From assembly GCA_951406725.2 (NCBI GenBank), contig OX597819.1, positions 23,870,001 to 23,934,000 on the forward strand: a stretch of 64,000 nt of DNA. The letters are read 5' to 3'. Shown here piece after piece: positions 4,013 to 62,645 of the stretch (position 1 is the stretch's first letter; each line of letters begins with the position of its first letter). The stretch comes from Octopus vulgaris (lineage: Eukaryota). A program made the translations under genes and the position numbers. The notes beneath the pieces were generated by a model that ran no database searches, had not been told where the DNA came from, and was given only the letters and a program-made list of their open reading frames with translations.

Positions 4013-4269
4013 GCAAAACACAAGGCGCCGGAACAGCTACCACAATTAAAAATCATTTCAGTTAACCTGCTACTCTGAATTGGTACCTTCTTTATGGAAA
4101 CCTTAAAAACTAGGGTTAATGTAATCGACTAGCTCCTATCCCAAAAGAATTGACCCCCACCCAAAAGAAAGACCTTAAGCCTATTGTAGAAAGAATTTTA
4201 AACTATTGAATTTTGTCAATGTAGACCATCACTTAATATCTAGCGATTATAACTAGTGATTATAAACAG

Positions 4270-4990
4270 TGATAGTCCTTGATGACGAGAGCTGGTGCTA
4301 CGGCTACGACCCCGAAACGAAGCAGCAATCAAGTCAGTGGAAACATTCAATGTCACCAGGCCCCGCAAAAGTGCATCAAGTGAAGTCCAATGTCAGGACG
4401 ATGCTGATTTGTTTCATCGATATGAAAGGAATTCTCCACACAGTATTTGTTCCTCCAGGTCACACTGTTAACCAGACATTTTACTTGGTAGTTCTTTCTG
4501 AAGCATTTGCAAGACACGGTGAAACGAAAATGCCCCGACCTGTGGCAAAGTGGAGATTGGTGGCTTCATCTCGACAATGCGCCTGCGCACACTACCTTGA
4601 GTGTGGAGACAGCTTTAGCCAAAAATGGCATGACCTCGCTTATCCACCCTCCCTATTCGCCCGATCTTGCTCGCTGCGACTTTTTTCTATTTCCCTGAAT
4701 AAAAAACTCCTTAAAGGAAAACGTTTTGCAGTTATGGAAGTGGTGACCTCACCCCGCCAAAAAACAAAAAACAAAAAACAAAAACAAAAAACGATGGAGG
4801 CGTTACAAGGCATCACTTCGTAAGAGTTCTAGGGCTGCTTCGAGCAGTGGAAAATGCGCCGGGACCGATGCATTGCTTCAAATAGAGAAAACTTTGAAGG
4901 CGATAAAAGTGTAAACATGTAAAACTAAGTGAATAAAATAATATTGCAAAATTCCGTTTATTTGGGCGGCGCGGGGGTTACCCCCACCTA
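4270..4990 (+). pseudogene. Mariner (DD34D) transposase, 3' fragment, frameshifted
   Basis: Motifs DESWCYGYD, HLDNAPAH and PPYSPDLARCDFFLF are split across frames; the C-terminal WKMRRDRCIASNRENFEG-like segment is present. Confidence 0.9.
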
Positions 4991-6310
4991 CATAAACAAA
5001 TATTACATGTCTCGTTGTTATGAGACACCATATGCAGCGAAATTCTCGAATTTCAACTCAGTTTCTATGAGCTGGTGTCCCATTCACTTGGCCACATCTG
5101 TTCCACTCAGTTGCTCGACTTCCTAGAAAGGCCATCAAAATTTCTCTCATATAGAACTGTATTGCGTCTTAAAAAAAGAATACATTGGATAGTGTGGTCC
5201 GTGATAGACAGTGTCTGAATGAATAATGGGAAGGTCATAGTTAGCAGTTCTCTTTTTGAAGGCTTGTTTGATTGAAGCTGACTTAAGGTTGAACAGCAAC
5301 AATCATCAAACAAAAGTGGTATTAAATGTAACAACAGTGATAGAAGCAACAGTAACACGGTTTACAAGAGAACAAAGGAACCTTTACATGGTTAACTTAG
5401 CTGCTAGAAACAGTAGTCAAATCACCATCAGACCATACCTTATTATCTTTTTTTTTTTGTAGAAATAAATAAACAAATAAGGACCATTGGTTAATATAGT
5501 TTGCAGTGAAAATACACGCAATAAGAATGACTTGTACGACTCTGGTTATAAATTTGCTGCACCAGGACTGACCTAGGGTTAAACAAAAACAGCCACATTA
5601 ACGTTAGTTGCTGCAATAAGAGCTACAGTAATAGTAAGAACAGCTGCAGTAATAATAACAACATGTGCAGAATAGCGTCAATAACAGCTGTAATGTCAAT
5701 ACCAATGGCAGCACCAAAAGCAGCAGCCATGGTAGTATTGTTGGTGTAGGCGGTGGTGTTGGTGGTGGTGTTGGTGGTGGTGTTGGTTGTGGTGTTGGTG
5801 GTGGTGTTGGTGGTAGTGGCGGCAATACTAAAATGTTGTTGTTGTCTGGGCGTCTCTTACATAGTCAAATTATTTCAATTTTCCCTACTTCCGTTTCTTT
5901 CAATAACAAATACATTCCAACGGGTACATTATATATATCGGGTACATTTTAATCTCATTACATTCTGGTGGATTCTGGGCACTTTATCAGGTTTTGTAAA
6001 ATGATGTAGATGCTTTTTTTTTTGTTTTTTTCATTCAGATTTCAGAGGAGCCGCAAAACAGTAACACCAGCGCCATCAATTAAGACAATGCGCTCCAACG
6101 TTTTAAAAATGGCGGTAGATCTTCGTAGCGCAAAAAAAAAAGATAAAGCACATTACAAATATACAAATTTACATTTTCTAAAAAGAAACAAAATTTAATT
6201 TTTTTCTTATTTTTAAATGGTTAAATCTAGGGTGGTGGTGAACAGTGCTTATAGGAGTTGTAGGGGGAACTAGGTACGGATAATACCTTTGATATCTAGT
6301 GCGCTAATAT

Positions 6311-7350
6311 CGTGACATCCGCCTTGCGAACGACACACCGGTCTCACGCCATTTCCGCTCCACCGGTCACTCCTTGAAACACCTGTCTGTGTTCGGTTTG
6401 TCCTTACACAGAGGCCATCCGGATTCCCGTTTGCGCCGTGAACAGGAATTAATCTTCTCTCTTCGCTCTTATACGCTATTTGGTCTCAACTCTCCCCCTC
6501 CTCATCTAACCCACCCTCTCCCCCCTCCTCATCTAACCTCCCCCCGACCCCTACTTCTCTTCAGTCCTTCATCCTTTCACCCCTACTCGTCTTCCCTTCT
6601 TCCCTCTTTCTCCCTCCCTCCTTCTTCCCTCTTCCCCTTCCCTCTTTCTCTCTGCTCCCTCACTCCCCTTCTCTCTCTCTCCCCCTCTCCCTCTATCCTC
6701 CCTCCTCCTCTCCCATCCTCTTCTCCTCTCCTTCCTTCTCCCCCTTCTCTCCCATCCTCTTCTCCTCTCCTTCCTTCTCCCCCTCCCCCTCCTCTTCTCC
6801 CCTTTCCTTCTCCCCTCTTCTCCCCTTTCTTTCTCCCCCTTCAACCCCCCTCCTCTCCCCCTACCTCCCCCTCTTCCCTCATCTCCTCTCTCTACACTAC
6901 ACCATACGACTTTACACATCACATCATATACACAGACACACGTCCAGACCTCTCATACGCACTAATACTCTCTCATACACACACACACTCTCTTCTCACA
7001 CACACACACAGACACTCTTATGTTGGAGCAAGGTCATTTAACCCTATTATCTCCCCTAATTTCGCTCTTGCGTCTCACGTTTGATCTTTGACTTCTGGCC
7101 GAAATCAGATCGCCATGTTGATTCGCTAGCCTCTGTACGCAATTTTTTTCTCTCCTTCTTTCTGTGTTTTTTTTTCTCTGTGTATCTTTCTGTTGAAGAG
7201 CGTAGGCTCGAAACGTTAAAGACTTGTTTTATTTATATTTCCTGAGCGCCATACTAATACAATTGTTTGTTTGTATTCCACCTGCCGTCGTCTTTTGTTT
7301 ATTTCCGTAAACCTGCCTTCGTCTTTTGTCTATTTTCATAAAGCTTCCCG
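6311..7350 (+). mobile_element. Penelope-like retroelement 3' fragment (GIY-YIG endonuclease C-terminus, pyrimidine tract, pseudo-LTR with hammerhead)
   Basis: 6311-6493 translates RDIRLANDTPVSRHFRSTGHSLKHLSVFGL...RLRREQELIFSLRSYTLFGLNS, matching the PLE GIY-YIG C-terminal pattern (PV.RHF...H; RE...I..L.....GLN). A minimal HHR follows at 7185-7222. Confidence 0.75.
7185..7222 (+). ncRNA. Minimal hammerhead ribozyme motif (one core substitution)
   Basis: tcttt-CTGTTGA-a-gagc(gtag)gctc-GAAA-CG-TT-aaaga: stem I tcttt/aaaga, stem II gagc/gctc, minimal stem III; the core has A6>U. Confidence 0.7.
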
Positions 7351-7765: not shown

Positions 7766-7815
<50 letters not shown>

Positions 7816-7816
<1 letters not shown>

Positions 7817-8042
7817 TTTATTTAATGCAGCAGAAAATTCAACAAAACCTGTTAATCTGAGTTTCCCGTTGCCGTTCATCGGACAGTTTTTGCTAGCAAA
7901 AACTGTCCGATGAACGGCAACGGGAAACTCAGAGTAACAGGTTTTGTTGAATTTTCTGCTCCTTTAAATAAAGCATATTACTCTACCACTGGTATTTGAG
8001 TACTCTTTTTCCCACCTTGTTTCACATTTATGTGTTTACTCC

Positions 8043-8045
<3 letters not shown>
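7816..8045 (+). mobile_element. (TA)n-embedded palindromic cassette with back-to-back hammerhead-like motifs
   Basis: Near-perfect palindrome 7816-7973 centred on gctagc (7892-7897), then about 70 bp of unique tail, flanked by (TA)n. HHR-like ctgt-CCGATGA-acggcaacgg-GAAA-CTC-A-GAG-TA-acag at 7903-7940. Confidence 0.7.
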
Positions 8046-8809: not shown

Positions 8810-10078
8810 CTGGTAACTAAGTTTCCGCCGTTTTTTAAATTTAATTCTTTTTAAAGGTTTAATAAAAAAGAACAACTAATTAATCAACAATGTATTCACC
8901 CTCGTTGTTTACAACTTCCCAACGTTCAACAATATTTTCAATACCTCGTTAGTAGAAATCACCCGATTTCGACTCGAAAAATTGATCCAGCCAAGCTCTC
9001 AATTCTGCATCAGTATTGAACGAAACTCCGCGCATAGCATTTGAAAGAGATCGAAAGGGGTGGAAATCGGTTGGTACCAAATCAGGAGAGTATGGCGTCT
9101 GTATGGCTTCCTTGGTCATATTGGCGATATGGGGGCGGGCGTTGTCGTGCAGCAGAAGAACTCCATGCTGCCGATTAGGTCTTTTCTCTTGAATAGCCGT
9201 GTTGTGTCGTTCCATCTGTTGAACATTGAGTTCCGCGTCGACCGTTTGGTTCCGTTCAAGTAATTCGTAATGGATACTCCCTTCTCAGTCCCACCATACG
9301 CACAAGATCATTTTACGCGGATGAAGATCTTATTTCATGCGCGGTGTTGCTTGTTTGCCGGGGCTAAGCCATTCCTTACGCTGCTTCATATTAATGTAGA
9401 GGCACCATTTTTCGTCGCCAATAACGATTCGGTAAAGAAATCGTTGTTTGTGTCCATGAGTTGAGTGGTGACGCGCAAGCAAACCATCGGAGATTGTGGC
9501 TCGTTGCTTTTTGTTGCTGTCACTTAAAGCATACGGAACCCATGCTCCGTACTTCTGAACCTTTCCCATCGAGTGAAGATGCTTCTCCACAGCAATGTGG
9601 GAGCATTCCTTTTTTTCTGTCAGTTCCCATGTCGTTTGGCGAGAATTTTCATGCAAAAGTTGGTTTAATCGCTCTTTATCGAAATCAACTGGATGGCCAG
9701 AACGAGGTGCGTCTTTGAGGTCAAATTTCCCATTTTTGAACTTGGCATACCAATCACGAGCGGTTCTTTCAGCTATGGCACCCCCTCCACACACAGCACA
9801 AATGTCGCGAGCAGCTTTTGCGGGCTTAGAGCCTTGATTAAAAGCAAAAAGAAGGAAGTGTCGAAAATGGTCGTTTTTCTTGACATTCCATTTTAATGAT
9901 CTGAAAAATAAACAAAAATTAACGAAAATTAACTAGAAAAAACAAACAAACAAACAAAACTAGATTCCAAAATGATTCAAAAATAGAATTCTCGAAAAAC
10001 ATCGATTCCAAAATTTAAAAACGCTATAAATTCCAAAATAAAAAAAAAAAAAACGGTGGGGACTTAGTTGTCAACCCA

Positions 10079-10125: not shown

Positions 10126-10357
10126 CAGTTGAGTTACAGGTTAAAATAACCGTCTAAGGGATAAAAGTATCCCAAATACTACCGGTATATTACCTATATT
10201 TAAACATGGGCAAAAATGTTATGCTCATAAATCATAGGTAAAGCCAAGGACAAACAGGAGTTTATCAGGAATCAAAATTTAAGAAAAAAAAAAACAGAAA
10301 ATGGCGATAACATTGATGAACAACAATTGATTTGCATCAATTATTATTTTTTAATAT

Positions 10358-10394
<37 letters not shown>

Positions 10395-10496
10395 TTGAAA
10401 TAAATAATTAGTAAACTATTAATCAATAATAATTGATACAAACCAATTGTTGTTCATCAATGTTATCTCCGTTTTCTTTAAATTTTATATGTATGC

Positions 10497-13520: not shown

Positions 13521-15129
13521 CAGAGAAATACATGTTCAATCTTGAACTCTTACTTAGTGACACGGTCATATTGCTTCAACGACTACAGTGAAGGATGTGT
13601 TGTTTAGCTGATGACGTCAAAATAAATCTGAAACATGCTCAGTGTTGTCTCCTATACTTGTCAGAAAAATACAATTATTATTAGTAATTTATTAGCATTA
13701 ATATCACGTGTTTCTCCTCCAGGTATATATTTCTTGGTTGATTTTTAACGCATCATGTCATAAATATGTTATCATTAATTTGGTAATTCAAGTATAGACA
13801 TAATAAAATATTAAAAAGGCAATAAATTTGTATCATTTTTCTTTTGACATGCTGAAAAAGCTTCCTCAGCATTTCCAGAGCTTGTCTCTCAGCCGAGAAA
13901 ATATTTATGCAAACTAATTAGCAGTTTTTTTTTTTTTTATCACAATGTGAAACATTTCAACACATCGAAACACACTGTAATTGTGTACATGTTTTAATCT
14001 GTGTTTATGTGTGCCCAGGAGACAGATAAATAGAGAGATAGAGATAGAGACAGACAGACAGGCAGAGACAGGGAGAAGTAGTGGTGAGAGAGGGGAAGAG
14101 AGGGAATAAGAGAGTGAAGAGGCAGCGTTTTTAATTCTTTTGACGACAAGGTTTTTGAGCTTATTCTTCGTTTAGTTAAGAAAGAAAAAAAGAAGAAAAA
14201 ACCGGGTACCGAGATTGAAATAAATCAGTAGTAGAGTAAGATAGACGCCGAGTACGTAAACGATTTATAAACTCGCTTACTAAATTGTCGCTGGTTTTAA
14301 CTGAATGAAATGTTGGTAGTATACACTGTTAATCAGAAAATTGCTAAAAATTCTGTTAATGTTGGCGGTTTCTATTGCGAGATGTCTGGTATATTCATGT
14401 ATTTAGAACATAAATATATATATGTATCAGCTTCCGTCATTCACAAGGGAAAGTATAGTATCGTGGATCTTAAACAGGGACTTTTAAGTTGATGTATTTA
14501 GCAGTTGACATCCGAGAGATTATTATCTATAATGGATTTCTGATTTATGGTCTGTCTATATATGCAGCTGAATCGGAAGAGTTTCCAGTATGAGTTTTGT
14601 TGCTCTTCAAATTTCCTGTCTATTTTGTGGATGGAATTTTATAGAGTTAACTACTTGGCATGTTTCTTTTTGTCGCTTTGGCAGTAAGAACGGTGGTGCC
14701 CATGACCATTTAAAGGGACTTCCCGAACTGGTGGAAAGCCAAACCGGAGACTAATGTTCTCCACAGAGTAGACACCGCTACAGGCATTCAAGGACCTGGT
14801 GGTGTTTCTCAACGGGGCGATGAATTACGACTTTTGGTTTATTAGTAAGTTCAAATATGCTTAATTTGAGACTTAATATTTGTTGTCGTTGCTGTTGTTT
14901 AACATCAAGTCAGCAATGATCAACCGGTCACATGATAAGAAGCGTTCCTCTCATGACCATACTGACTTTTTGTGTATATTTGATAACGTTGTCCAATGCA
15001 TTCTTCATTTTGATAGTACAACACGGGGAAGAAATTAAGGAGATTTAGCTGCTTTTTCCAGCAAATTGGACGACTGCGAAGAGGCTCTGCCGAATTTGAT
15101 TTTGATTGTTATCATTGTTGATGTTGTAT

Positions 15130-15585: not shown

Positions 15586-15973
15586 GGGAGGAAGCACTCC
15601 GTCTGTTACGACGACGAGGGTTCCGGTTGGTTCGAATCAACGGAACAGCCTGCTCGTGAAATTAACGTGTAAGTGGCTGAGCACTCCACAGACACGTGTA
15701 CCCTTAACGTAGTTCTCGGGGATATTCAGCGTGACACAGAGAGTGACAAGGCCGGCCCTTTGAAATACAGGTACGTCAGAAACAGGAAGTAAGAGTGAGA
15801 GAAAGTTGTGGTGAAAGAGTACAGCAGGGATCACCACCATCCCCTGCCGGAGCCTCGTGGAGATTTTGGTGTTTTCGCTCAATAAACACTCACAACGCCC
15901 GATCTGGGAATCGAAACCGCGATCCTATGACCGCGAGTCCGCTGCCCTAACCACTGGGCCATTGCGCCTCCAC
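15586..15973 (-). mobile_element. SINE family C (tRNA-Arg-like head), full length, 12-bp TSD
   Basis: Head gtggaggcgcaatggcccagtggttagggcagcggactcgcggtc..ggtttcgattccc; TSD actggtgggtaa at 15574-15585 and 15974-15985. Confidence 0.92.
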
Positions 15974-17318
15974 ACTGGTGGGTAAATGTGAATATGGAAT
16001 AATAATAGTTACATCAACAAGCATATCTTCATCTGAGGAGGAAGAATAGAAGGGAGGAAGAAAGTTGTTTTTAGTCCGGAAACAAGAACTGAATGTTTGC
16101 TACAAAATAATATTTGCTAAAGATACACTGAAAGCAGTTTGTTGGTATTAAAATAAGTGGAGGATTGAGTACAATACCCCCTCATAAATAATGGTCCCTT
16201 CGACGAATTTTCACGCAGTTTATGTCTCCCAAACTTTACTTAAAGGTTTTAATCATCTCAAGCCACCGTGATACAAATTTAACTAAACTGTCAAGAACTG
16301 GGCTCGAAGCGTGTACTTGTGAGTGCGACTTCTCAACTGCATAGCCATGGCTGGCAAAGAACAAAAGAAACATCCTCCAGAAAACGTTTCTTTCTATACA
16401 ACAGCTTCCGATGAAGACAAAATAAGGTTGCAATGAGATACAAAGGAAAGAAAAATAACTGAAATATTATGACATAAAGAATTTTAGGGCAATATTAATG
16501 AATGTAGCGTCTGACGTTTCGAGTCTTCGTCCTTTGTCGAGAGTGAAGAAAGGATGAAAAGCATTGGTATCATTTGAGTTAAAGACATGAGAACGAGAAA
16601 GAAATTGAAGTTGTTGGAGGGTTGTGAGAAGGGATGATATTGGCGGTGATGGTGAATTGAGATGTGAAAGAGAAATGGCCAAGAGAAGACAATAGAAGGT
16701 CAGAGATCTGGGATGCGAGTTGAAAGAAGGATTTCTAATGTAGACACAAGGTCTCAAATTTGGTTGTGAGGTTGGTAGGAGGAAAATAATCGATCATAAT
16801 CGACTGAGTTCTAGATTGGTACATTATTTTCCCGACCGAGAGAAGATGGGAGACAGATCGACCTTCATATGATGTGAACCAAGAAGGTGAAGTGCAGAGC
16901 AGTTTTAACTGGGCTTTGTAGTATAGTTACATAACTTTTGAGTTAAAGAAAAATATAGAAGGAGTCAATTTAAAGCAAGAAAGATTTGAAGGAAACATGG
17001 AATGTCTGTTAATGCTGTTGTATTTCATTATGTTTTACAAAAAACTATCAACTCAACAGACGTTTGTAACCCAATACATTCCGTTTCAGCGCCTCCTAGC
17101 CGTACAAATTGTAACTATAATCCTTCTGAACCTATACAATTAGATTCAAGTGAGACAGTGAGCCTAGGTTTGGGCTGTAAAAGAAGTGTAAACAACTTAA
17201 GCGCGAAAACCCTTTGAGTTTATGTATGTATGTCTGCATATATGTATGTATGTATGTATTTTTATATATGCTTATGTATGTACATACGCAGATAACATAC
17301 ACAGAAGTATTGTGTGCT

Positions 17319-19580: not shown

Positions 19581-20096
19581 ATTACTACCGCTGTTGAAAT
19601 GTTACTTAATAACGGTATAAAACAAAATGCTTTTAGACTGGTTCAGTAGTCTCAATCCAATATTGAAAATGGTCAATATTTACAACGGCCAAACAAGAAT
19701 TATATCTTTCTTATAACAACAGACATAGAGGACAACGTGATATAATATTTATACATCTTGCCCTTCTCTAAACTGTACTGATAATCTATTCATGAGTGTG
19801 TATATATATATATAGACTTACTGTTAACAAAAGTCGAGATGCGTGGCTTTCAGTTACTCAATAACTGAAAAATGCATTAACTGCTACAAAACGTACCCGT
19901 AGGATAGACACGGAAGTTCTATAACTCTTCATCAGTTATTAACAGAAGAATACTAGTGAAGAATTACCATCCTTCTGTGTCTGTCCTACGTGAACGTTTT
20001 GTAGTATTTAATGCAGTTTTCGTTTATATATATATATATATATGTATGTAAATATATATATATATGTGTGTGTGTGTATGTATATATGTATATATG

Positions 20097-20184
<88 letters not shown>

Positions 20185-20187
<3 letters not shown>

Positions 20188-20353
20188 GGTCCCGGGTTGA
20201 TTCGGGGTTAACCACAGTAAATAAGGTACTCAATACATAGCAGAGTAAAATTAATTTATTATATAGAAGGAGCTTCTACAGGACTAGAACTGTTTCATTG
20301 ATGATTTCTCTTGAATGAAACAGTTCTAGTCCTGTAGAAGCTCCTTCTATATA

Positions 20354-20360
<7 letters not shown>
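20185..20360 (-). mobile_element. Palindromic hammerhead cassette (family E), centre deleted
   Basis: Near-identical to 43095-43283 and to the reverse complement of 52185-52388; both flanks are (TA)n. Confidence 0.85.
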
Positions 20361-23352: not shown

Positions 23353-23662
23353 AACGTGCAAGTGGCTGAGCATTCCACAGACACGTGTACCCTTAACGTA
23401 TTTCTCGGGGAGATTTAGCGTGACACACAGTGTGACAAGGCAGGCCCTTTGAAATACAGGTACAACAGAAACAGGAAGAAAGAGTGAGAGAATGCTGTGG
23501 TGAAAGATTACAGCAGGGTTCACCACCGCCCCCTGCCGGAGCCTTATGGATCTTTAGGTGTTTTCGCTCAATAAACACTCGCAATGCCCGGTCTGGGAAT
23601 CGAAACCGCGATCCTACGACCGCGAGTCCGCTGCCCTAACCACTGGGCCATTGCGCCTCCAC
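23353..23662 (-). mobile_element. SINE family C copy
   Basis: Ends ccgctgccctaaccactgggccattgcgcctccac, like the 15586 copy. Confidence 0.88.
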
Positions 23663-24388
23663 AATACACAATATAACAGGACGACTATTCTGATACTGTG
23701 CTATTTACCCTTATTTAATTAGTATATGCATTTATCAATGATCACTTTCCTATATACATTTCTCTGATACATATATAGCTGTAGTATACAGGCACGGACA
23801 CATTGTGTATTTGTGAATATATCTATGAAGTGTAAGAAGCAGATAAATACAACTGCTAAAGAGGTCTTTAAAAAAGTGCTTATATTGCTATAATTATTCA
23901 TTTTATTTTCAGTAAGTCTCCCCTTTTCTTCTTCATCCTTCTTTCCTTATAGAGGATGGTTTATATTACATTGGCTGGATACTGAGTCCATATTAGATCG
24001 CATTTCAAAATTAAATTACACATGGCATCCGGGTCTGAACTATATGTATTAAGTCGCAAGTAAAACTGTCACAATAGGAATTATATCATTTTTCAGGACT
24101 ATACGCATCATGGGGTCATAAAACAATTTTTTTTGTGTCATATCTGTTGAACAAGAAACCATGAGAAAAGAGACTGGGAATTATAGATAAACATTCATAC
24201 TTGCTTCAAAGATGAAATGGTGGATCAATGTTATGAACGTTACACTAGCTTTTTCCATTTATTTATTTAGTTTTTAACTTCTAGATTGTAGGTCAGAAAT
24301 GAGTGATACTGCAACAGTAAGTACTTTAATTTTCGAAGTAGAAAAGAAAAATGAACAATCCGAGTGGTGGAAAGGATTGTTTGAATTA

Positions 24389-25243: not shown

Positions 25244-26284
25244 TGTCTTCCTAGTTCCTTGATGCTTTTCAACAATGCTTTCTGTAATAAAGCCTTGACG
25301 CCATTATTCTCTCAATAAAGTCTTGAATCCATTGTTCTTTCAATAAATGTGAGTCTTCCAACACCAGCAGCACTCGTGCATCCCCAAAGTATAACACTTC
25401 CGCAACCGTGTTTCACGATGCATTTGTCACTATTATCTTCACCTGGTCGTCGCCATACTCGTTTAATACCATCTGATCCAAACAAGTTGATTTCAGTCTC
25501 GTCAGAAAAAATAATTTTATTCCAAAACACCTTTCCCTTACTCACATAGGTTTCGGCAAAAGAAAGACGACTTGATTTATGCCTGGTAATGAGGAGAGGC
25601 TTCCTATGAGGAATGCGTCTATGAAGACCACACTGGTTAAAACTTTGGCAAACTGTTTGGACGGATACACTCTTTCCCCTAACAGAGACCGCACGACGCC
25701 TGTCGCCCATTACGTAACGTTGGATGCGGCGAATATCACGTGCGGTTAAAATGGGGAGACGACCTGGACGATGTTTATTGCTTAGTCGTCCAGTAGCTTT
25801 GTACTTCTGAAATACTTTGGCAATTGTGCTTACGCTAACATGTATTCATTTACTAATTAACTTGTATCCTAAGCCATTCTTATGTAAATTAAAAAGAAAT
25901 TTTCTTCAAATTTTGAGAAAATTATTTTCGTTTTGGTGCCATTTTAATCACAATGAAGAATATTTTCACCACAGTACACAAATCAGAATTCCTGCAGATG
26001 CAATAACAATGACCGGTGCAAAACTACCAGGAGAAATAATTTATTAAAATTGAAATTATCAGCAATATCTGAAATTAGTAAAAAAGGGGGATAAAATATT
26101 GATTATAGCAAATTTCTTTTAGGGTGTACATATTTTTGTAACATTTGAAAATTAATATTTCGTTTATGCCTTTGAAAATGTTTGCATGTATAATATATCT
26201 TATCCAGTATAAACTTCGTTTGATTTCTGTCGATATTATCAGAGTAATGGCAATTTTTTTAGGGGTATACATACTTCTGTGAGA

Positions 26285-29745: not shown

Positions 29746-29959
29746 AGGCAAGCATGAATTTACGAATTGCAGAAACAACCTACAAAGAGAAGAATAAATG
29801 ACTGCAACCGAGGATAAAACGCGAAGCTGACTTCGGTGGTGATTCGAACTTAAAGCGCAGTGATTGAGAACGAATAAAGCAACGTATGCAAAGTACTGCT
29901 CTAACGACACTACTATTCGTAACATTTCTCTTTTTGTATAGAAGGGTCATTGTCCAATT

Positions 29960-30318
29960 GTGGAGGCGCAATGGCCCAGTGGTTAGGGCAGCGGACTCAC
30001 GGTCATAGGATCGCGGTTTCGATTCCCAGACCGGGCGTTGTGAGTGTTTATTGAGCGGAAACACCTAAAGCTCCACGAGTCTCCGGCAGAGGATGGTGGT
30101 GATCCCTGCTGTACTCTTTCACCACAACTTTCTCTCACTCTTACTTCCTGTTTCTGTTGTACCTGTATTTCAAAGGGCCGGCCTTGTCACTCTCTGTGTC
30201 ACGCTGAATATCCCCGAGAACTACGTTAAGGGTGCACGTTAATTTCACGAGCAGGCTGTTCCGTTGATTCGGATCAACCGGAACCCTCGTCGTCGTAACC
30301 GACGGAGTGCTTCCATTC
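29960..30318 (+). mobile_element. SINE family C, 12-bp TSD
   Basis: TSD cattgtccaatt at 29948-29959 and 30319-30330; A box tggcccagtgg and B-box-like ggtttcgattccc. Confidence 0.92.
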
Positions 30319-33828: not shown

Positions 33829-33904
<76 letters not shown>

Positions 33905-33910
33905 TAATTA

Positions 33911-34450
33911 TATACATAATTATAACAAGGGCTTGGCTTGCGCCTCACCACGCATTGTAAAATAGACGTCGAAAGACACTATTACCACCATAAATTCTCC
34001 GAGAAAAACATACAACATAATAGGCTAATAGAAGAAAGAAAACGAATTAAAGCTTTGGTTAACCGCGTACATGATCGTGCTTCGGGGTTAAAGTAATAAA
34101 AAACATTACCTCTTTGCCTTCAACAGCGTCGGTAAAGCCAGACATATATATATACGAGTGGCCACGGATATAAGATAAGCGAAGACGCAGCTTGCTTGCA
34201 TATCCGTGGCCACTCCTATTTATATGCCTATTTATACCGACGTTGATGAAGGCAAAAAGGTATTAGTTTTTATTACTTTAAGCCCGAAACACGATTATGT
34301 ACGCGGTTAAACAAAGTTTTAATTCATTTTCTTTCTTCTGCTAGCCTATTATGTAATGTGTTTTTCTCGGACAATTTATGGTGTTCTTTTGACGTCTATT
34401 TTTCAGTGCGTGGCAAGGGGCAAGCCAAGCCCTTGTTATAATTATGTATA
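33911..34450. repeat. 540-bp imperfect palindrome; each arm holds a decayed hammerhead motif
   Basis: The arms run from tatacataattataacaagggcttggcttg to caagccaagcccttgttataattatgtata. HHR-like motifs lie at 34062-34133 (-) and 34236-34307 (+). Confidence 0.85.
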
Positions 34451-34536
34451 TACTTATAAAATATTTATAAAATTTACCTATGAGATTTTATTTCAGCGCT
34501 GGCCACTTGGTAAAAATCATTTATGTTTTTACTCTT

Positions 34537-39551: not shown

Positions 39552-39936
39552 GTTGTTGGCACTCCTTCGCTTACGACGACGAGGGTTCCAGTTGATCCGA
39601 TCAATGGAACAGCTTGTTCGTAAAATTAACATACAAGTGGCTGAGCACTCCACAGACACGTATACCCTTAACGTAGTTCTCGGGGAGATTCAGCATGACA
39701 CGGAGCGTGACAAGGCTGGCCCCTTCAAATACAGGTACAACAGAAACAGGAAGTAAGAGTGAGAGAAAGTTGTGGTGAAAGAGTACAGCAGGGTTCGCCA
39801 CCATCCCCTGCCGGAGCCTCGTGGAACTTTAGGTGTTTTCGCTCAATAAACACTTGCAACGCCCGGTCTGGGAATCGAAACTGCGATCCTACGACCGCGA
39901 GTCCGCTGCCCTAACCACTGGGCCATTGCGCCTCCA
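39552..39936 (-). mobile_element. SINE family C, full length
   Basis: Matches 15586-15973 along its length. Confidence 0.9.
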
Positions 39937-40009
39937 CAATACACAAACATACATGCATACATACATGCATACACGTACATACATGCATACATACATACAT
40001 GCATACAAA

Positions 40010-41304: not shown

Positions 41305-41680
41305 GTGGAAGCACTCCGTCGGTTACGACGACGAGGGTTCCGGTTGATCCTAATCAACGGAACAGCCTGTTCGTGAAATTAACGTGTAAGTGGCTGAGCA
41401 CTCCACAGACACGTGTACCCTTAACGTAATTCTTGGGGATATTCAGCGTGACACAGAGAGTGACAAGGCCGGCCCTTTGAAATACAGGTACAACAGAAAC
41501 AGGAAGTAAGAGTGAGAGAAAGTTGTGGTGAAAGAGTACAACAGGGATCAACACCATCCCCTGCCGGAGCCTCGTGGAACTTTAGGTGTTTTCGCTCAAT
41601 AAACACTCACAACGCCCGTTCTGGGAATTGAAACTGCGATCCTATGACCGCGAGTCCGCTGCCCTAACCACTGGGCCATT
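41305..41680 (-). mobile_element. SINE family C, slightly 5'-truncated
   Basis: Family C sequence; flanking repeat tggtgtatat at 41295 and 41680. Confidence 0.9.
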
Positions 41681-41982
41681 GGTGTATATATAGTCATAGT
41701 AAGTGAGAGTCCTTTGACTGAGAAAAGTCGAATGATTTTACTACCGGTATTAATCGTAACTACAGTTGGACTCTGTGTCTGAACACATACTAGCGATAGC
41801 CGTGTAATCGTGTAAAGCCATGCTCAATACGTTCCATTGCAAATGAACATGATAAGACCTATCACTGCCAGAATAATCCCGAGAGGTTAATTTCCACCTA
41901 GACTTGGAAATTTTCTCTCGTGACTATATTAGCAGCAATAAGTTTTTTATCACAACTATATTTTTTATTACATCCAAATATT

Positions 41983-43094: not shown

Positions 43095-43097
<3 letters not shown>

Positions 43098-43278
43098 TCC
43101 CGGGTTGAGTCGGGGTTAACCACAGTAAATAAGGTACTCAATACATAGCAGAGTAAATTAATTTATTTTGTAGAAGGAGCTTCTGCAGAACTAGGACTGT
43201 TTCATTCAAAAGAAATCATCAGGAAGCCCTGATGATTTCTTTTGAATGAAACAGTCCTAGTTCTGTAGAAGCTTCTTC

Positions 43279-43283
<5 letters not shown>
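43095..43283 (-). mobile_element. Palindromic hammerhead cassette (family E)
   Basis: Back-to-back tcatcag-gaagcc-ctgatga cores; (TA)n on both sides; the unique segment is nearly identical to the 20185 and 52185 copies. Confidence 0.88.
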
Positions 43284-44416: not shown

Positions 44417-47400
44417 CGTACAGAGGAACCAGAATGATCAGGTTGTTGCTTCGAATATTGGACGTTCTGTCATTTTCCCATCACCATACACTGGAGGCCT
44501 TGGGTACATGCATGAAAAATGCAGGATGCTCTCACTTTTGTCCGCCGCTGTGGCCGTCCAGATTTTTTCATCAACTTCACTTGTAATCCAAACTGGGTTG
44601 ACATCCAGTCTCACTTCATGACCCAAATCCTCCAAATAGGTATAACACCACATCTAGAGTGTTTCACCTGAAGCTAATGAAAATGAGAGACGCTATAAAA
44701 CACGGATATGTTTTTGGACCATTAAGATGCTTCATGTAGAATGGCAGAAGAGAAGACGCCCTGATGCCCATATCCTCTGGCTTCAAAACACTCATTTCAA
44801 CAGATATCGACTTCGTTATCAGTGCTGAACTGCCAAATCCCCAATCGTTTTTGAAATCATAAAATCCAGCATGATCCATGGCCCGTGTGGTCACCTAAAT
44901 CCAAGGTCTGCATGTATGGACAATGGGAGGTGTACAAAGCGTTACCTACACAAACTAATTCATGACACCCAGACTGGTGACGACGGCTATCCTTTATACC
45001 GTCGCAGGACACCATAGAGGGGTGGACATACGGCAACAATAAAAATGGTTGGTGGTCAAAAATTGAATGTCGACGACAGATGGGTGATACCACATAACAA
45101 GGTGCTTTGTAAAATGTCTTCGGTTCAAATTAACGTTGAATTCTGCAACTCCGGGAAATCAATTCAATACATCTGCAAGCATGTACATAAGGGAGCCGAT
45201 CAAGCAGTTATTGAGTTGGCTAAGCCCGGTGAACCTGATGCCGCCACAGATGAGGTCACATTTTCCGAAACTGGACTAATCAGGCATTTTGGCGCATATT
45301 CAGTTTTCCGATCCATCAACGTGAACCTGAAGTTATTCACCTTAGTGATCATCTGGAAAATTGGCAACGGGTGTATTTTAATCAAGAAAATATACTTGAG
45401 TGTGCAAACCAACCTCGAAGAACGACCCTGACCGGATTTTTTTAAATTTGCACTTCAGGCTCTTTTGCCAGAAGACTTCTTTATGCGGAGTTGCCTACCT
45501 TCTACACGTGTAATAAATCTTCCCGCTGTTGGCAAAAAAAAAAAGAAAGCGAGGACGCATTTCAGAAAGGAATGTTTCAATGCGTGAATATGATGCCCTC
45601 TCAGGAGTGTACACAGTTCACCCGCTTAACTCAGAATGCTTTCACCTGCGTCTTCTGTTGCACGTTGTCAAAGGTCCGATTTCCTTTCAAGACCTTCGTA
45701 CTGTTAATGGCCATATTTGTTCAACGTTCAAAGAAGCCTGCTCCAAATCAGGTCTTCTTGATAACGATGACCATTATGACCACGCCCTCTAAGAAGCATC
45801 AATGTTGCAGTCCCTCATTGCTTTTCGTAAACTTTTCGCCGTTATTCATGTTATACTGCAGTCTTGCGAATTCACAATCTTTCTAGAAGAAATATCGCAA
45901 CATGTGCTTGTACATCCTTATGCAATATCGCTACGCATCAACAGACATGATTTTACAGTTTATACCTGCAATGTACAACTGTGGCCTGATATTCCTAGAA
46001 GATACCATTTTGGAAATGGGTGGCCGTCCATTGAATAACTACTGTGTTGAATCCCCTTGCAGAGAAAATGAGGCGATTTGTAACCAGCACTTACTAAGGG
46101 AGACATGCTACGACGCTGCCAGGCTTCTATCCTACGTTGAAGAAAGAGAAGAATTTTTGAATCCCGAACAAGCTGTTGTCTATAATTTTATTTTGACAAT
46201 ACTTGAAGACACCACCTGTGGCATCCACTTCCTTGATACGCCAGGTGGCACAAGAGGACATTTCTCCTCAACCTCCTTGCCAAAGTGGACAGATTACCAT
46301 TGCAATGGTGTCTTCAGGAATAGCATCAACACTGCTAGACGGCGGTAGAAAAAGTCCAACATCAGCTATGTTGAAAATCCTACCACCAATATAAACAAGA
46401 ATTCTGATGAGGCATTTATCTTTCAAAAATGCCAACTGATTGTCTGGGACGAGGCAAAAATGCTTCACAAGAATGCACTTAATACAATCGACACAACGCT
46501 ACAAGACCTGCACTCCAACTCTAAACCGTTCGGAGGCGTCGTTATTTTTACTGGGGACTTTCGTCAAGCCCTTCCTATTATCCCAAAAGGCACACCAGCT
46601 GATGAATTAAACGCTTGCCTTAAAAAATCTCATCTTTGGCGCTCTATCCTGTCGAGAATGTTAACCATAAATGTGCGTTCCATTCTCCACCAACAAGATG
46701 ACAATTCCTTTGCTTCAAAGTTATTAGATGTCGTTAATGGCAGCTTACCGCTCGACGTAAACGGTTTGGCTGATATAAGTACCATCGGTAACTACGTCTC
46801 CGGCCCTGAGGAACTATGCACAACAGTTTACCCCCAGCTTCTTGAATGGATGTGTGAAAGAACCACCTTAACTCCAACAAATTCCACCGTCCAAGCCTTC
46901 AACATATGTCTGCTTCGTCAATTTCCTACCCAAGAGCGATGCTTTACTTCGGTTGATTCGGTTACTGATCCAACACAAATTACATTTTTCTCAACAGAGT
47001 TTTTAAACCCACAAGAACCATCGGGAATGCCACTGCATAAACTTTGCCTTAAACTTGGTTGTCCTATTATGCACTTGAGGAATTTGGAGCTTCCTCGGCT
47101 TTGCAATGGCACATGTTTGGCTGTTAAGCAAATGTTGGATAACGTTCTCGAAGCCACAATCATCACAGGAAAAGGCACTGGCGAGTCTGCTTTTATTCCC
47201 TGAGTTCCACTTATTTCGACAGACTGTGTCTTTGCGATGAAAAGAGTCCAGTTCCCCATTCGATTTAGCTTTGCTATGACCATTAACAAAGCCCAAGGTC
47301 AGTCACTAAAAGTGGTTGGGCTGGACCTCAATACACCGTGCTTTTCACACGGACAGCTGTACGTTGGAAACTGGACCAATCTCTTCTACCACGCCCCCGA

Positions 47401-51726: not shown

Positions 51727-52184
51727 GTGTTTGTGTGGATTTGTGCGTGTTAATTGTATATTTGTGTGTATATGTAAATGTATGTATACGTGAATGTGCG
51801 AGTGTGTCAGTGTAACTGTGTACATACGTGAATGTGTATATGTGTGTGTTGTTGAATGCGTATGTGCGAATGTGTGTGTTTGAGTGTGTGCTTGTGTGTG
51901 TAAGTATGGGTGTGTCTGTTTATTAATGCATATGTGTGTTTCTTTGTGTGTCTAGTTACGTGTGTGGTTGAGAGTTTATTCGTGTAAGTGTTAATGTGTG
52001 TTATGTGTCTATGTGTGTATATAATATGTAGTTGTACTATGTGTCTGCGCTTTCCTGAATATGTGTTTATGCATGTGGTGAGGTGTGTGTATGTGCGTGT
52101 TTCAATGCATTTGTTCATGTATGAGTGTGTGTGGTCTTATGTGTGTACGAATTGTTGAATGTTGAATGTCTATATATATATATA

Positions 52185-52387
52185 TATATTTATTATATAG
52201 AAGGAGCTTCTACAGGACTAGAACTGTTTCATTCAAGAGAAATCATCAGGAGCTTCCTGATGATTTCTCTTGAATGAAACAGTTCTAGTCCTGTAGAAGC
52301 TCCTTCTATATAATAAATTAATTTTACTCTGCTATGTATTGAGTACCTTATTTACTGTGGTTAACCCCGAATCAACCCGGGACCTAC

Positions 52388-52388
<1 letters not shown>
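52185..52388 (+). mobile_element. Palindromic hammerhead cassette (family E), best-preserved copy
   Basis: A palindrome of about 130 bp (tttattatatagaaggagcttc...gaagctccttctatataataaa) plus about 70 bp of unique tail ending gggacctac, within (TA)n. Confidence 0.9.
52248..52304 (+). ncRNA. Intact type I hammerhead ribozyme
   Basis: Stem I aggagcttc/gaagctcct (9 bp); core CTGATGA at 52257-52263; stem II ttc(tctt)gaa; GAAA at 52276-52279; stem III A-CAG/CTG-T with a CTAG-containing loop. The predicted GUA cleavage site is after 52295. Confidence 0.85.
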
Positions 52389-52418
<30 letters not shown>

Positions 52419-55220: not shown

Positions 55221-57300
55221 CTGTTTCTTTATTTTGCCACTACGGCCACAACACAGAGGGGGCACTACAAAGATAGACACAACACCTCAGTGGGGCCAAG
55301 AGATGTTCTATAAAAACGAAATGGCTGCATGGGCCCCACTCCCATGCACTATCATTTGAACGTTTATATAAACTACTTGCAATCGTTCGATTACCTTATT
55401 GTTTTTTTTTTTTAATCTCGTTGTTTCCTCTTTTTTTTTTGTAAATGAAACAATTATACTTTTTTCCTTTTTTCTTCAATAAAACAATTTCATTTACTTT
55501 TTCCTTTTTAATATCTCATAAAAGGTTCTAAATCCTTTCTACTATAGGCAAAAGGCCTGAAATTTGGGGAAGGGGTAAGTCGATTACAGTACTTAACTTA
55601 TCGACCCCAAAAAGATGAAGGGCAAAGTCGACCTCGGTGGAATTTGAACTCAGACGAAATAGCGCTAAGCATTTCGTGCGGTGCGCTTAAGATTCTTTTC
55701 TATTCTAGGTACAAGACCCGAAATTTTGGGGAAGGGGGCCAGTCGATTAGATCGACCCCAGTATACAACTGATACTTAATTTATCGACTTCGAAAGGATG
55801 AAAGGCAAAGTCGACCTCGGCGGAATTTGAACTTAGAACGTAACGCCAGACGAAAGAGCGCTAAGCACTACTGGTGGCAATTCATCGAACTCAACCATCA
55901 CTCCTGGCGGGTCAATCCCTTCTCCACACGTGTCTTCTAGTCTGCTGTAGGCGTCCTTGTCAACCACGATGGCCTTCACATTCTCGGAATACACATCCGT
56001 GGGCAACTTTACTCTTATGATATATTTAAACTTTAATACTTTCTTTTCAGTTTCTTTACTTTTTGCGTACGTCACAAAACTCTATCGAAATTTTCCTTTT
56101 CTTATTTGTTTTCTCTTTTCCTGCTCCGCTCCTGGTACCTTCTTTTCTTGCACCACTCTGAACAGTCTCTCCGGTTGTGTTTCTAAATTTTCTTCCTCCA
56201 CTGGAACAACCGGTGTCTTCACCAATGTCTCTTCCTTATGCAACTCCTTCTTGAACCCTTCTTCAAGTTCCCTTTCGCTTACTTTATCCATCACCATTAT
56301 GTCTTCCTTCTGGTCTCCCTTTCCATCTCTTTTTCTGCTGCTCTGGCCGAGAGATCACTCTCCCACTTCTCTTTCTTTTTTTTAAACCCCGTGAACCCCT
56401 CCTCCGTTGCTTTCTCCTTTATCTCTACCTGTACTACCTGGTCCGTGCTCTCCTGCCTCTCCGTCTGCTCTATCTGTTGTTCCTTCTGGGGACACCTCAC
56501 TTTCATTTGGCCCTTTTCCCCACATGTATAACATACAGGCGGCCTGCCCTCCACCACCACTCTCAATCTTACGTCATCGGGCAGCACTATCTCTTTGATA
56601 ATTCTGTTTAGGTCTTCCACTGTTGCTTGAACAGTTAACTCTATTCCATATCACCAGTAGTTAAATTTTTGGGTTCTTGTGGCCTTCAGTGTCTTGGCCT
56701 CCTCATTCATGTTATACATTATAGCTGTCATCAGTCATGCTTCTTTCAGCTCTGGAGGCAAGTTGTCAACTCGCACCCTGGCCACACGTTTGCCTCAGTA
56801 CGATGGCAAAAGTACCCATTCTTCCGATCTTATTGCCTCCGTGGAGTGCTTAACTACTTACTCTTCTGATGCAAAACGCACCCCCACAGTAGTGTACTTT
56901 CTCCCTCTTGCTATAAATGTGGTTAGTCTTTTAATATTCTTCAAACATTCTTCAATAGCCTCTATTGTCGCTATTTCTATATTCCTTGGTGTTGTCTTCA
57001 TTGTCTTATATATCACGGTTCTTTTCATTGAGACGGCGTGTATTTCCGTCTCTTTCCAGCAACTTTTCGCATTCTTAACTTTTCGAGGTTCAACCTTTAT
57101 TTCTCTTACCGCCAGCGTTTCCACGTCTATCCCTTTTCCAGTTGCAGCCGCATAACTGTGGTCATCTGCTAGCGTTTTCTCCATTTTCCCCACAATGGGG
57201 AAAAAACAACAATTCAAAATAACACTAGCAACAATTCGAACAGCAACAATCAATCAAACAAATATTTAACACTATGACTAACACAACTCAAACCTCCTCT
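55221..57300 (-). mobile_element. ORF1-only non-LTR-like retroelement (decayed zinc-knuckle ORF about 57184 to 55870), interrupted by a SINE B dimer
   Basis: Broken ORF MEKTLADDHSY...FIARGRKYTTVGVRF...VVVEGRPPVCYTCGEKGQMKVRCP (CCHC knuckle with H>Q, a pattern typical of L1/Tx1-type ORF1). The 3' end resembles the SINE B type-1 tail. No RT or EN is seen. Confidence 0.6.
55531..55868 (-). mobile_element. SINE family B tandem dimer, duplicate of 54207-54570
   Basis: Shares the diagnostic variants gtcgattacagtacttaactt, ccccaaaaagatgaagggc and cgacttcgaaagg. Confidence 0.85.
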
Positions 57301-61400: not shown

Positions 61401-61464
<64 letters not shown>

Positions 61465-61713
61465 TCGAAAAATACCTTAGGAATAAGAACCCAGGTTCGA
61501 AAATTCTGCCGAGGTCGACTTTGCCTTTCATCCTTTCGGGGTCGATAAATAAAGTACCAGTTACGCACTGGGGTCGATATAATCAACTTAATCCGTTTGT
61601 CTGTCCTTGTTTGTCTCTTCTATGTTTAGCCCCTTGTGGGTAGTAAAGAAATAAGAAAACGTTCCCAGTTACTTTTGGGCACTCCCTCGTATAAGCTGTT
61701 TATATACAGACAA
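61373..61713 (+). repeat. Internally deleted duplicate of about 62400-63203
   Basis: (AAT)n plus aacatcgaaaaataccttaggaataagaacccaggttcga is fused to a SINE B 3' half, the mariner end and the flank ataagctgtttatatacagacaa. Confidence 0.8.
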
Positions 61714-62171: not shown

Positions 62172-62645
62172 GCTTATTTACATTATTTACATTTGGCCTC
62201 ATCTTGTTCGTTGTTAACACAACGTTCCGGCTGATATACCCTCCAACCTTCTTTACTACGCTATATGCGCACGGGCATATGGCGTAGTGGTTAAGAGCGC
62301 TGGCTACTAATCCCAAGATTCCGAGTTCGATTCCAAGCAGTGACCTGAACAACAACAACAACAACACTAATAATATTAATAACAACAACAATAATAATAA
62401 TAATAATAACAATAACAATAATAACAATAACAGCAATAATAATAATAATAACAATAACAATAATAATAATAATAACATCGAAAAATACCTTAGGAATAAG
62501 AACCCAGGTTCGAAATTTCCCCTGAAGAAGGATGGAAGGTATATCAGCCGAAACGTTGTGTTAACAACAAAGATGACAAATATCCCTCGAATGTAAATAA
62601 TGTAAATAATGTACATAATTCTTCATCTCTTAAATATAGAACTGT
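62172..62645 (+). mobile_element. tRNA-headed SINE-like element with a hammerhead-bearing PLE-like tail and an inverted 5' tail copy; 10-bp TSD
   Basis: TSD atccatgtaa at 62162-62171 and 62646-62655. A box tggcgtagtgg at 62280, B box gagttcgattcc at 62323, then (AAT)n and CTGAAGA..cagcc-GAAA-CG-TT at 62522-62557. An inverted tail copy lies at 62175-62253. Confidence 0.75.

What the first reader, a model, noticed from the sequence alone, without database searches (positions are those of the whole stretch)
52185..52388. Tiny (TA)n-targeting palindromic element carrying back-to-back hammerhead ribozymes (3 copies; one intact fold)
Seen: three near-identical elements of about 180-200 bp (20185-20360, 43095-43283, 52185-52388), each embedded in (TA)n. 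Each is a fold-back palindrome plus a unique segment of about 70 bp. The 52k copy contains a complete type I hammerhead (9-bp stem I, CUGAUGA, stem II, GAAA, stem III, GUA site after 52295) and a mirror core on the opposite strand. The palindrome centre differs among copies, while the arms of one copy share variants (loop III ttctagtc at 52k, tcctagtt at 43k), suggesting the inversion is created anew at each insertion. Known: Penelope-like elements carry HHRs in pseudo-LTRs and often insert with an inverted 5' pLTR. Inference: a high-copy, non-coding, ribozyme-bearing mini-retroelement (solo-pLTR or retrozyme-like) that targets TA microsatellites. If intronic, it could cleave host transcripts or form long hairpins.
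Basis: partly seen in the sequence, partly recalled or inferred. Interest (0 to 1): 0.82.

Follow-up and report, generated by a model that had tools for sequence, protein, structure and literature searches.

The report
Folded-back ends of a Penelope-like retrotransposon
Three short mirror-image repeats sitting in TA runs are real, and are likely the clipped, folded-back tail ends of a known kind of jumping gene (a Penelope-like element, likely of the Hydra group), whose ribozyme motif is predicted to be locked in a hairpin here and so unlikely to cut host RNA.

Summary
Three copies exist, each (TA)n / inverted arm / hammerhead arm / ~70-nt tail / (TA)n; only 52k has a full type I fold. Corrections: the native stem I is 6 bp, since contigs of other copies run into different upstream DNA, so three of the nine pairs come from the inversion junction. 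The 52k and 43k centres differ by one base; 20k is 52k minus 25 central bases. Read-through RNA is predicted to fold into a 62-64-bp hairpin (-107 versus -16 kcal/mol) that hides the ribozyme. The hammerhead matches published Hydra-clade Penelope-like elements (U.U at the stem II base, 4-bp stem III, (TA)n targets). Head-to-head palindromes, one-sided tails and solo pLTRs are described PLE traits. A second family at 7814-8045 has the same layout. No parent RT/endonuclease ORF was found, so clade membership is inferred. It is not a tandem retrozyme. Possibly new: a bulged hairpin shared by the tails, and a recurring 5' start 29 nt below a TATA-like box. The scan noted similar head-to-head PLE ends before in another genome (e1-7882047). 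Verdict: new family of a known kind.

The parts
52171..52187 (.). left (TA)n target tract of the 52k copy
   Evidence: sequence
52188..52251 (-). inverted (mirror) arm: hammerhead core, stems II and III and the stem I 3' strand, ending just after AATAAA; no stem I 5' strand
52252..52254 (.). 3-nt loop at the palindrome centre; one other genomic contig shows the same junction
   Evidence: table 7 (X7, place 52255)
52251..52301 (+). type I hammerhead of Hydra-PLE architecture: native stem I 52251-52256 / 52296-52301, core 52257-52263, U52264.U52275, stem II 52265-52267 / 52272-52274, GAAA 52276-52279, stem III 52279-52282 / 52291-52294 with an 8-nt CTAG-centred loop, predicted cut after A52295
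52312..52318 (+). AATAAA and the recurrent end point of the inverted arm (likely second reverse-transcription start or resolution site)
   Evidence: 12 contigs in X7 and 3 in X6 pass from 52318 into (AT)n
52319..52388 (+). 70-nt tail, present on one arm only
52325..52346 (+). bulged tail hairpin: lower stem TACTC/GAGTA (pair probabilities 0.79-0.92), weak upper stem (0.2-0.3), TT bulge; shared with family 2 and the 1878 hit
52389..52414 (.). right (TA)n tract of the 52k copy
   Evidence: sequence
43095..43283 (-). second copy, different subfamily; main arm has GCA at the cut site, mirror arm has GUA but no stem I; centre one base shorter than in 52k
20185..20360 (-). third copy, identical to 52k including both outer ends, but lacking 25 central bases and so any complete core plus stem I
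7814..8045 (+). second, unrelated family with the same layout: (TA)n, inverted arm ending after AATAAA, Hydra-type hammerhead (core has C at position 4 in both arms), bulged tail hairpin 7979-8003, tail, (TA)n

Best explanation
These are likely solo 3' ends (pseudo-LTR plus tail) of a Penelope-like retrotransposon, probably of the (TA)n-targeting Hydra clade, likely inserted as very short copies whose inverted arm would arise by fold-back during reverse transcription. Inferred cycle: the RT/GIY-YIG protein of an autonomous relative nicks (TA)n, primes on the RNA at the end of the tail (52388), copies about 140 nt back to about 52251, then snaps back or switches template onto its own cDNA, and copies it to just past AATAAA (52318), where it rejoins (TA)n. 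Shown: the layout, the two recurrent end points, the hammerhead motif and the TA flanks. Predicted: any read-through RNA forms a 62-64-bp hairpin, so these copies would give double-stranded RNA rather than self-cleavage; the ribozyme would matter only in copies without the inverted arm.
For: Hammerhead architecture: in File S2 of PMC8557442, 14 of 25 Hydra-clade families have U.U at the stem II base (my count), all 25 have a 3-4-bp stem III, and 4 of 25 have the same ACAG/CTGT stem. 26 of 27 families in File S1 list (TA)n targets, and Penelope-13_HM carries an inverted 5' copy with an antisense hammerhead. The hammerhead window starts 104-183 nt from the 3' end in the six novel families and 157 nt here. 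Head-to-head palindromes at the inverted junction, a tail on one arm and solo pLTRs are described in PMC3846280; opposite-strand hammerhead pairs in PMC4209133; the tail as the stretch between two RT start sites in PMC11167929. Contigs show native upstream DNA beyond 52251 and a recurrent mirror end at 52318. A second family has the same layout, with tail similarity reached by 5 of 2000 shuffles. Hairpin -107.4 against hammerhead -15.7 kcal/mol.
Against: No Hydra or other PLE RT motif was found in the six frames of the window (1 chance-like hit for 10 motifs), and no longer copy linked to an ORF was seen. Loop III is 8 nt against 1-3 nt in all 25 listed Hydra families. The tail is 70 nt against the 30-40 nt described. 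The published octopus family Hydra-1_Obim has a different hammerhead, and five short motifs of this element are absent from that supplement. The 20k copy has a mirror arm 15 nt longer than its main arm, which simple snap-back cannot make; it needs a later deletion or an assembly error. PMC3846280 argues for self-priming on an antisense template instead. No covariation in the hammerhead stems was shown: the stems are invariant and the changes fall in loops.
Confidence: 0.8

Rival explanations
1. A fixed-length non-autonomous mini-element: a short RNA started at about A52251 from the pLTR's own promoter and running into (UA)n is retroposed in trans by a Hydra-type RT, SINE-fashion, so the short copies are products of their own RNA class and not random truncations. 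This refines the best explanation and does not exclude it.
For: 5' starts cluster at 52251-52252: 52k, 43k, one X7 contig with the same centre, and one X13 contig in which (TA)-rich DNA abuts 52251; X10 record 1 and X13 record 3 also end there. A TATAAA lies 29 nt upstream in the native flank. PMC2377424 reports that the Penelope 3' pseudo-LTR holds the sequences needed for transcription.
Against: Four copies only; 13 of 44 loose ends were displayed. Contig ends also mark graph forks. The D. virilis promoter is internal and TATA-less. The site may just favour snap-back through a small natural hairpin.
Confidence: 0.3
2. The whole palindrome-plus-tail unit is itself the mobile master, copied as one piece, so the inversion arose only once or a few times per subfamily.
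For: 52k and 20k have identical outer ends; the 52k centre recurs in another contig; the mirror end at 52318 recurs in 15 contigs of two runs.
Against: 43k has a different mirror end and subfamily variants in both arms; a copy without the mirror arm exists (X13 record 2); an unrelated family shows the same layout, which points to a shared insertion process.
Confidence: 0.1
3. Non-LTR retrozyme monomers that spread through ribozyme-made circular RNA.
For: A type I hammerhead in a short non-coding repeat; retrozymes are thought to derive from pLTRs and occur as monomers.
Against: No head-to-tail repeat in the window; the one joint listed is a 50-nt skip, not a go-back; copy ends do not coincide with the predicted cut at 52295/52296.
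Confidence: 0.06
4. A palindromic DNA transposon (MITE, foldback or Helitron-like) with an incidental hammerhead-like motif.
For: TA flanks and a long inverted repeat; a GC-rich hairpin near the 3' end.
Against: The inverted repeat is not terminal (70 nt lie outside it); the hammerhead descriptor has 0 hits in 100 shuffles; the motif follows Hydra-PLE hammerheads in detail.
Confidence: 0.04

Closest known systems
Hydra-clade Penelope-like elements (PMC8557442; e.g. Penelope-n_HM, Hydra-1_aMil, Hydra-2_aMil, Penelope-1_NV, Hydra-1_Obim)
   Same: (TA)n targets; hammerhead near the 3' end with U.U at the stem II base and a 4-bp ACAG/CTGT stem III; inverted 5'-truncated copy with an antisense hammerhead (Penelope-13_HM); a similar bulged-hairpin motif seen by eye in 3 of 5 novel consensus sequences whose ends I read
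   Different: 8-nt CTAG-centred loop III (1-3 nt there); 70-nt tail; no ORF linked here; sequence not in that supplement by motif search
Penelope elements of Adineta vaga and Drosophila virilis (PMC3846280, PMC2377424)
   Same: head-to-head inverted pLTR with a palindrome at the junction, shorter inverted arm, tail on one arm, solo pLTRs, TATA-like box in the pLTR (A. vaga)
   Different: copies here are reduced to about 140 nt plus mirror; no target-site duplication can be read in (TA)n; the inversion junction lies at stem I of the ribozyme
Minimal PLE hammerheads (PMC4209133)
   Same: type I motif in PLE terminal repeats, mostly dispersed singly, sometimes as opposite-strand pairs, palindromic loop III
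   Different: real 4-bp stem III; no G10.1-C11.1 pair; short stem II
Non-LTR retrozymes (PMC7229834; bioRxiv 10.64898/2026.07.22.740005)
   Same: short non-coding repeat with a type I hammerhead, pLTR-related; axolotl HHR_Amex2 also has U.U at the helix II base and cleaves weakly (22% in 1 h as monomer)
   Different: no tandem array, head-to-head and not head-to-tail, ends not at the cut site

Membership tests
EN+ Penelope-like element | ORF with PLE RT and GIY-YIG endonuclease | tested here: inconclusive
   None next to any of the 3 copies and no RT motifs in the window; no genome held, so a parent elsewhere could not be sought
EN+ Penelope-like element | type I hammerhead in the 3' pLTR | tested here: met
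EN+ Penelope-like element | inverted 5'-truncated pLTR, head-to-head, with a palindrome at the junction | tested here: met
   3 of 3 copies; described
EN+ Penelope-like element | tail extension on one end only | tested here: met
   70 nt, longer than the 30-40 nt described; mirror end recurs at 52318
EN+ Penelope-like element | partial tandem (direct) pLTRs flanking an ORF | not testable with these tools
   contigs carrying native upstream DNA were short (median 16-24 loose letters)
Hydra clade | protein motifs (RWK, DKT, CxCX5C linker, no CCHH) and RT phylogeny | not testable with these tools
   no ORF available
Hydra clade | (TA)n insertion preference | tested here: met
   6 of 6 ends in (TA)n; shared with Naiad and Neptune, so not diagnostic
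Hydra clade | canonical hammerhead with a 3-4-bp stem III, often U.U at the stem II base (descriptive trait) | tested here: met
   one search compared; loop III length differs (8 against 1-3 nt)
Naiad clade | lack of a canonical hammerhead | tested here: not met
   full type I motif present; Naiad trait
Non-LTR retrozyme | at least two consecutive head-to-tail units with complete hammerheads | tested here: not met
   none in the window, no go-back joint listed; not excluded elsewhere in the genome
Non-LTR retrozyme | abundant unit-length circular RNA | not testable with these tools
   only contigs were available
Hammerhead ribozyme (type I) | conserved core, three stems, NUH site | tested here: met
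   52k main arm only; position 7 varies U/A in other contigs
Hammerhead ribozyme (type I) | Rfam model score above gathering | tested here: not met
   best listed hammerhead score 14.5 bits against 48.5
Hammerhead ribozyme (type I) | Mg2+-dependent self-cleavage | not testable with these tools
   needs an assay
MITE / TIR DNA transposon | inverted repeats at both termini (recalled definition) | tested here: not met
   70-nt tail lies outside the inverted repeat

The most novel reading that the evidence does not exclude
Hydra-type PLEs in this genome spawn a fixed-length, SINE-like mini-RNA from their own pLTR promoter (start at about A52251, 29 nt below a TATA-like box). The RT recognises it through a conserved bulged hairpin in the tail, starts on either side of that hairpin, and snaps back at the RNA's 5' end, mass-producing perfect hairpins in TA microsatellites. 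This would define the cis signal and the two priming sites of Hydra-clade retrotransposition, explain the inverted pLTR, and supply a large pool of self-contained double-stranded RNA substrates for ADAR or small-RNA pathways.
Probability: 0.25. Interest if true: 0.6.

Novelty: new member of a known kind. Interest (0 to 1): 0.3.

Why it matters
As a class this is ordinary: PLE ends with hammerheads, inverted arms and TA targets are described. The value is mechanistic. These 200-bp inserts are the smallest complete record of a PLE insertion, with two recurrent end points around a tail hairpin and a recurrent fold-back point, so they make the unexplained origin of inverted pLTRs and tails testable by counting junctions in one genome. 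If the host is an octopus (inferred, not established), perfect hairpins are of interest as editing substrates: PMC5625713 reports exceptional hyper-editing and dsRNA potential in octopus, and heavy editing of lizard Penelope and of a palindromic frog repeat. They are unlikely to act as intronic cleavage switches.

Tried and rejected
No genome is held for this window, so there is no copy count and no search for a parent ORF. Exact-pattern scans of metagenome, viral and prokaryote collections found 0 matches each. Rfam over the window listed only microsatellite- and hairpin-driven miRNA-type matches below gathering among the 150 of 228 rows shown; local scans gave only weak Hammerhead_3 scores. 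Sequencing runs: no RNA holder listed; X13 is only guessed to be RNA, so expression is untested; summed contig depth is not a copy number. The GIY-YIG-like 61-aa piece at 6308 had no Pfam match and no homologue at E <= 0.001 among 33 candidates, so its identity rests on recall and it could not be tied to this family. The mariner search lists Octopus proteins among many animals, with best hits elsewhere, so it does not fix the host. Motif searches of two supplements found no copy of this family; the O. vulgaris repeat library, Repbase and Dfam could not be seen and may already hold it. Look-ups of earlier findings by sequence, by place and by Hydra words were blank. A splice-acceptor reading of the recurrent 5' start was dropped because copies begin at the AG itself, not after it. 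Two pair indices were mis-set and were redone. Whether the copies are intronic was not determined: of 154 ORFs of at least 90 aa, 9 were scanned with Pfam and gave only transposon domains or sub-threshold hits.

Full report
Observation. The three elements are there. blastn of 52185-52392 finds the 52k copy, a 43k copy (minus strand, 91.9% identity) and a 20k copy (minus strand) and no other match longer than 14 nt. Oriented tail-last, each reads (TA)n, inverted arm, hammerhead-bearing arm, 70-nt tail, (TA)n. All 6 of 6 ends touch (TA)n, which covers 2.9% of the window; the tracts may have grown at or after insertion. A generic type I hammerhead descriptor hits once in 64 kb on both strands, at core 52257 with N17 at 52295, against a mean of 0 in 100 dinucleotide shuffles. 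Rfam hammerhead models do not reach gathering, so the identification rests on the descriptor and on comparison with published PLE motifs.

What other copies show. No genome is held. A run search listed 20 holders of 52246-52388 among 24 rows, in 10 studies under 6 organism labels; leaving out the possible source samples, 8 studies and 5 labels remain. I laid 4 of these runs on 52248-52388: 1818 contigs from about 80% of X7, 489 from X6 (both possibly the source of this DNA), 1 from X10 and 3 from X13. X10, a 4.3-million-letter assembly under another organism label, holds the unit in one contig. This fits a high-copy repeat but gives no number. Among the 13 of 44 loose ends shown, 23 X7 contigs and 3 X6 contigs continue upstream of 52251 with a different AT-rich sequence, holding TATAAA 29 nt upstream. 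So the native stem I is 6 bp, and bases 52248-52250 of the 52k copy come from the inverted arm. Twelve X7 and three X6 contigs pass from 52318 straight into (AT)n, the same mirror end as in 52k and 20k. One X7 contig has the 52k centre with a variant at core position 7, and one X13 contig has TA-rich DNA directly before 52251 with no mirror arm. The only substitution listed above 2% is in loop III (52284).

Arms and centres. The two arms of a copy share four subfamily differences (one in loop II, two in loop III, one downstream), while the 43k arms differ from each other at two further sites. That needs at least two origins of the inversion, or conversion between arms. In 20k the mirror arm is 15 nt longer than the main arm, which a simple snap-back cannot make; a later deletion at the hairpin tip or an assembly error is the likely cause (inference).

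Can the ribozyme work? Only the 52k main arm has core, three stems and GUA. The 52k mirror has a 2-bp stem I, 43k main has GCA, and 43k mirror and both 20k arms lack stem I. In read-through RNA of either strand the element is predicted to fold into a perfect hairpin of 62-64 bp, about -107 kcal/mol, against -15.7 for the hammerhead fold in the same RNA. As the RNA grows, the first stem I pair has probability about 1e-44 or lower. Even the isolated unit forms native stem I only about a quarter of the time. Loop III keeps a CTAG centre in both subfamilies and can pair between two molecules (-13.4 kcal/mol), so dimer activity is plausible for arm-less copies. A U.U at the base of helix II goes with weak cleavage in axolotl HHR_Amex2 (PMC7229834, passages). 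In a Poseidon PLE the hammerhead needed protein and was dispensable for insertion in vitro (PMC11167929, parts 1-2 of 4).

Which family. File S2 of PMC8557442 lists Hydra-clade hammerheads (supplement part 2 of 59). By my count, 14 of 25 families have U.U at the stem II base, all 25 have a 3-4-bp stem III and 4 of 25 have ACAG/CTGT. 26 of 27 families in File S1 prefer (TA)n, and one carries an inverted 5' copy with an antisense hammerhead. The element fits this pattern except for its 8-nt loop III. Naiads share the (TA)n target but lack canonical hammerheads (passages; section 11 read whole). Hydra-1_Obim has a different hammerhead, and motif searches did not find this family in that supplement or in the supplement of PMC13282606 (passages and supplement search). 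No RT motif occurs in the window, so Hydra membership is inferred from RNA features, not shown.

The layout is known. PMC3846280 (passages and Discussion) describes head-to-head inverted pLTRs with palindromes at the junction, a shorter inverted arm, a tail on one arm and solo pLTRs, and reads them as self-priming. PMC4209133 (abstract, Results, Discussion) reports opposite-strand hammerhead pairs 100-700 bp apart among truncated PLEs. PMC11167929 equates the tail with the stretch between two RT start sites. Retrozymes are defined by tandem head-to-tail units (bioRxiv 10.64898/2026.07.22.740005, parts 1-2 of 5), which are absent here. The window itself shows the layout is common: a second family at 7814-8045 has an inverted arm ending after AATAAA, a Hydra-type hammerhead and a tail between TA tracts, and two older fold-backs lie at 19861-20027 and 33892-34469.

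What may be new. (1) A bulged hairpin at the start of the tail. A descriptor (ACTC or GCTC, a short stem, a 2-3-nt A/T bulge, GAGYRC) hits 5 places in the window, against a mean of 0.1 and a maximum of 2 in 100 block shuffles. It was built from these families and from published ends, so only the hit at 1878 is out of sample, and that one has no clear hammerhead. Family 1 and family 2 tails align at a score reached by 5 of 2000 shuffles. RNAalifold on 3 sequences predicts 9 pairs, only 1 with a two-sided change, which is weak. By eye, Hydra-2_Amil and Hydra-2_Ajap have the same shape near their 3' ends and Hydra-1_Ajap at its 5' end, with G-C in place of A-U in the lower stem; Hydra-1_Crog is partial and Hydra-1_Obim lacks it (not computed). 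The main text of PMC8557442 has no 'hairpin' or 'stem-loop', and searches listed nothing on it; subscription papers, Repbase and Dfam were not searched. (2) The recurring 5' start at 52251-52252 below a TATA-like box, which may be a transcription start. PMC2377424 (passages) shows the 3' pLTR of Penelope can drive transcription, but by an internal TATA-less promoter.

Mechanism and verdict. Shown: layout, TA flanks, hammerhead motif, recurrent ends at 52318 and 52388, native upstream flank. Inferred: endonuclease nicking of (TA)n, priming at the tail end, fold-back near 52251, resolution at 52318, supply of RT in trans. Predicted: double-stranded RNA and no self-cleavage from these copies. The host is likely an octopus, from repeat content (recall) and weakly; this is not established. 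PMC5625713 (passages) makes such hairpins plausible editing substrates. Overall this is a new family of a known kind, interest 0.3; the tail hairpin and fixed start are the parts worth following.

Noticed in passing
window 7814-8045: Second fold-back family with the same layout and a Hydra-type hammerhead (stem I CTGT/ACAG and a 4-bp stem III as in Hydra-2_aMil); the core has C at position 4 in both arms; perfect palindrome centre.
   Followed up: yes
window 1878-1901: Isolated match to the bulged tail hairpin in TA-rich DNA, with no clear hammerhead upstream; possibly an old end of a third family.
   Followed up: partly
window 33892-34469: Old 580-bp fold-back (81.6% arm identity) next to (TA)n, with a degenerate hammerhead-like core, long loop II and GATC-centred loop III.
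   Followed up: partly
window 19861-20027: Old fold-back (73%) between TA tracts with a CTGATGA core on the minus strand, directly beside the 20k copy.
   Followed up: partly
window 6308-7330: Frame resembling a PLE GIY-YIG C-terminus (recall; no Pfam or homologue hit), then a CT-rich stretch, a minimal-hammerhead-like end at about 7193 with an altered core, then (TA)n. A similar end follows at about 7485.
   Followed up: partly
window 62480-62645 and 61463-61500: Minimal hammerhead (core at 62522, GAAACGTT) in a repeat that follows (AAT)n tracts, with an inverted partial copy near 62180-62265; the same leader at 61463 runs into another repeat.
   Followed up: no
window 16500-16545 (minus) and 13600-13650 (plus): Further degenerate hammerhead-like cores.
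   Followed up: no
window 4266-4823, 8949-9932, 25312-25845: Tc1/mariner transposase remnants (Pfam Transposase_1, HTH_48, HTH_Tnp_Tc3_2).
   Followed up: partly
window 45018-47300: Broken Helitron-like PIF1 helicase region (PF05970, PF21530 on 46349-47200).
   Followed up: partly
window 55951-57253 (minus): Broken LINE ORF1-like frames with a sub-threshold zinc knuckle match (E 0.08).
   Followed up: partly
window 15694-15974, 23383-23665, 29957-30239, 39658-39940, 41411-41681: Interspersed repeat of about 280 bp, 92-96% identical between copies, SINE-like; a second repeat of about 213 bp has at least 6 copies.
   Followed up: no
run contigs laid on 52323-52325: A variant subfamily has a different sequence between hammerhead and tail (8 contigs of X7), and one contig skips 52273-52322.
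   Followed up: no
window 10296-10477: AT-rich fold-back centred on a TA tract (84% arm identity), with no hammerhead core found by the scans.
   Followed up: no
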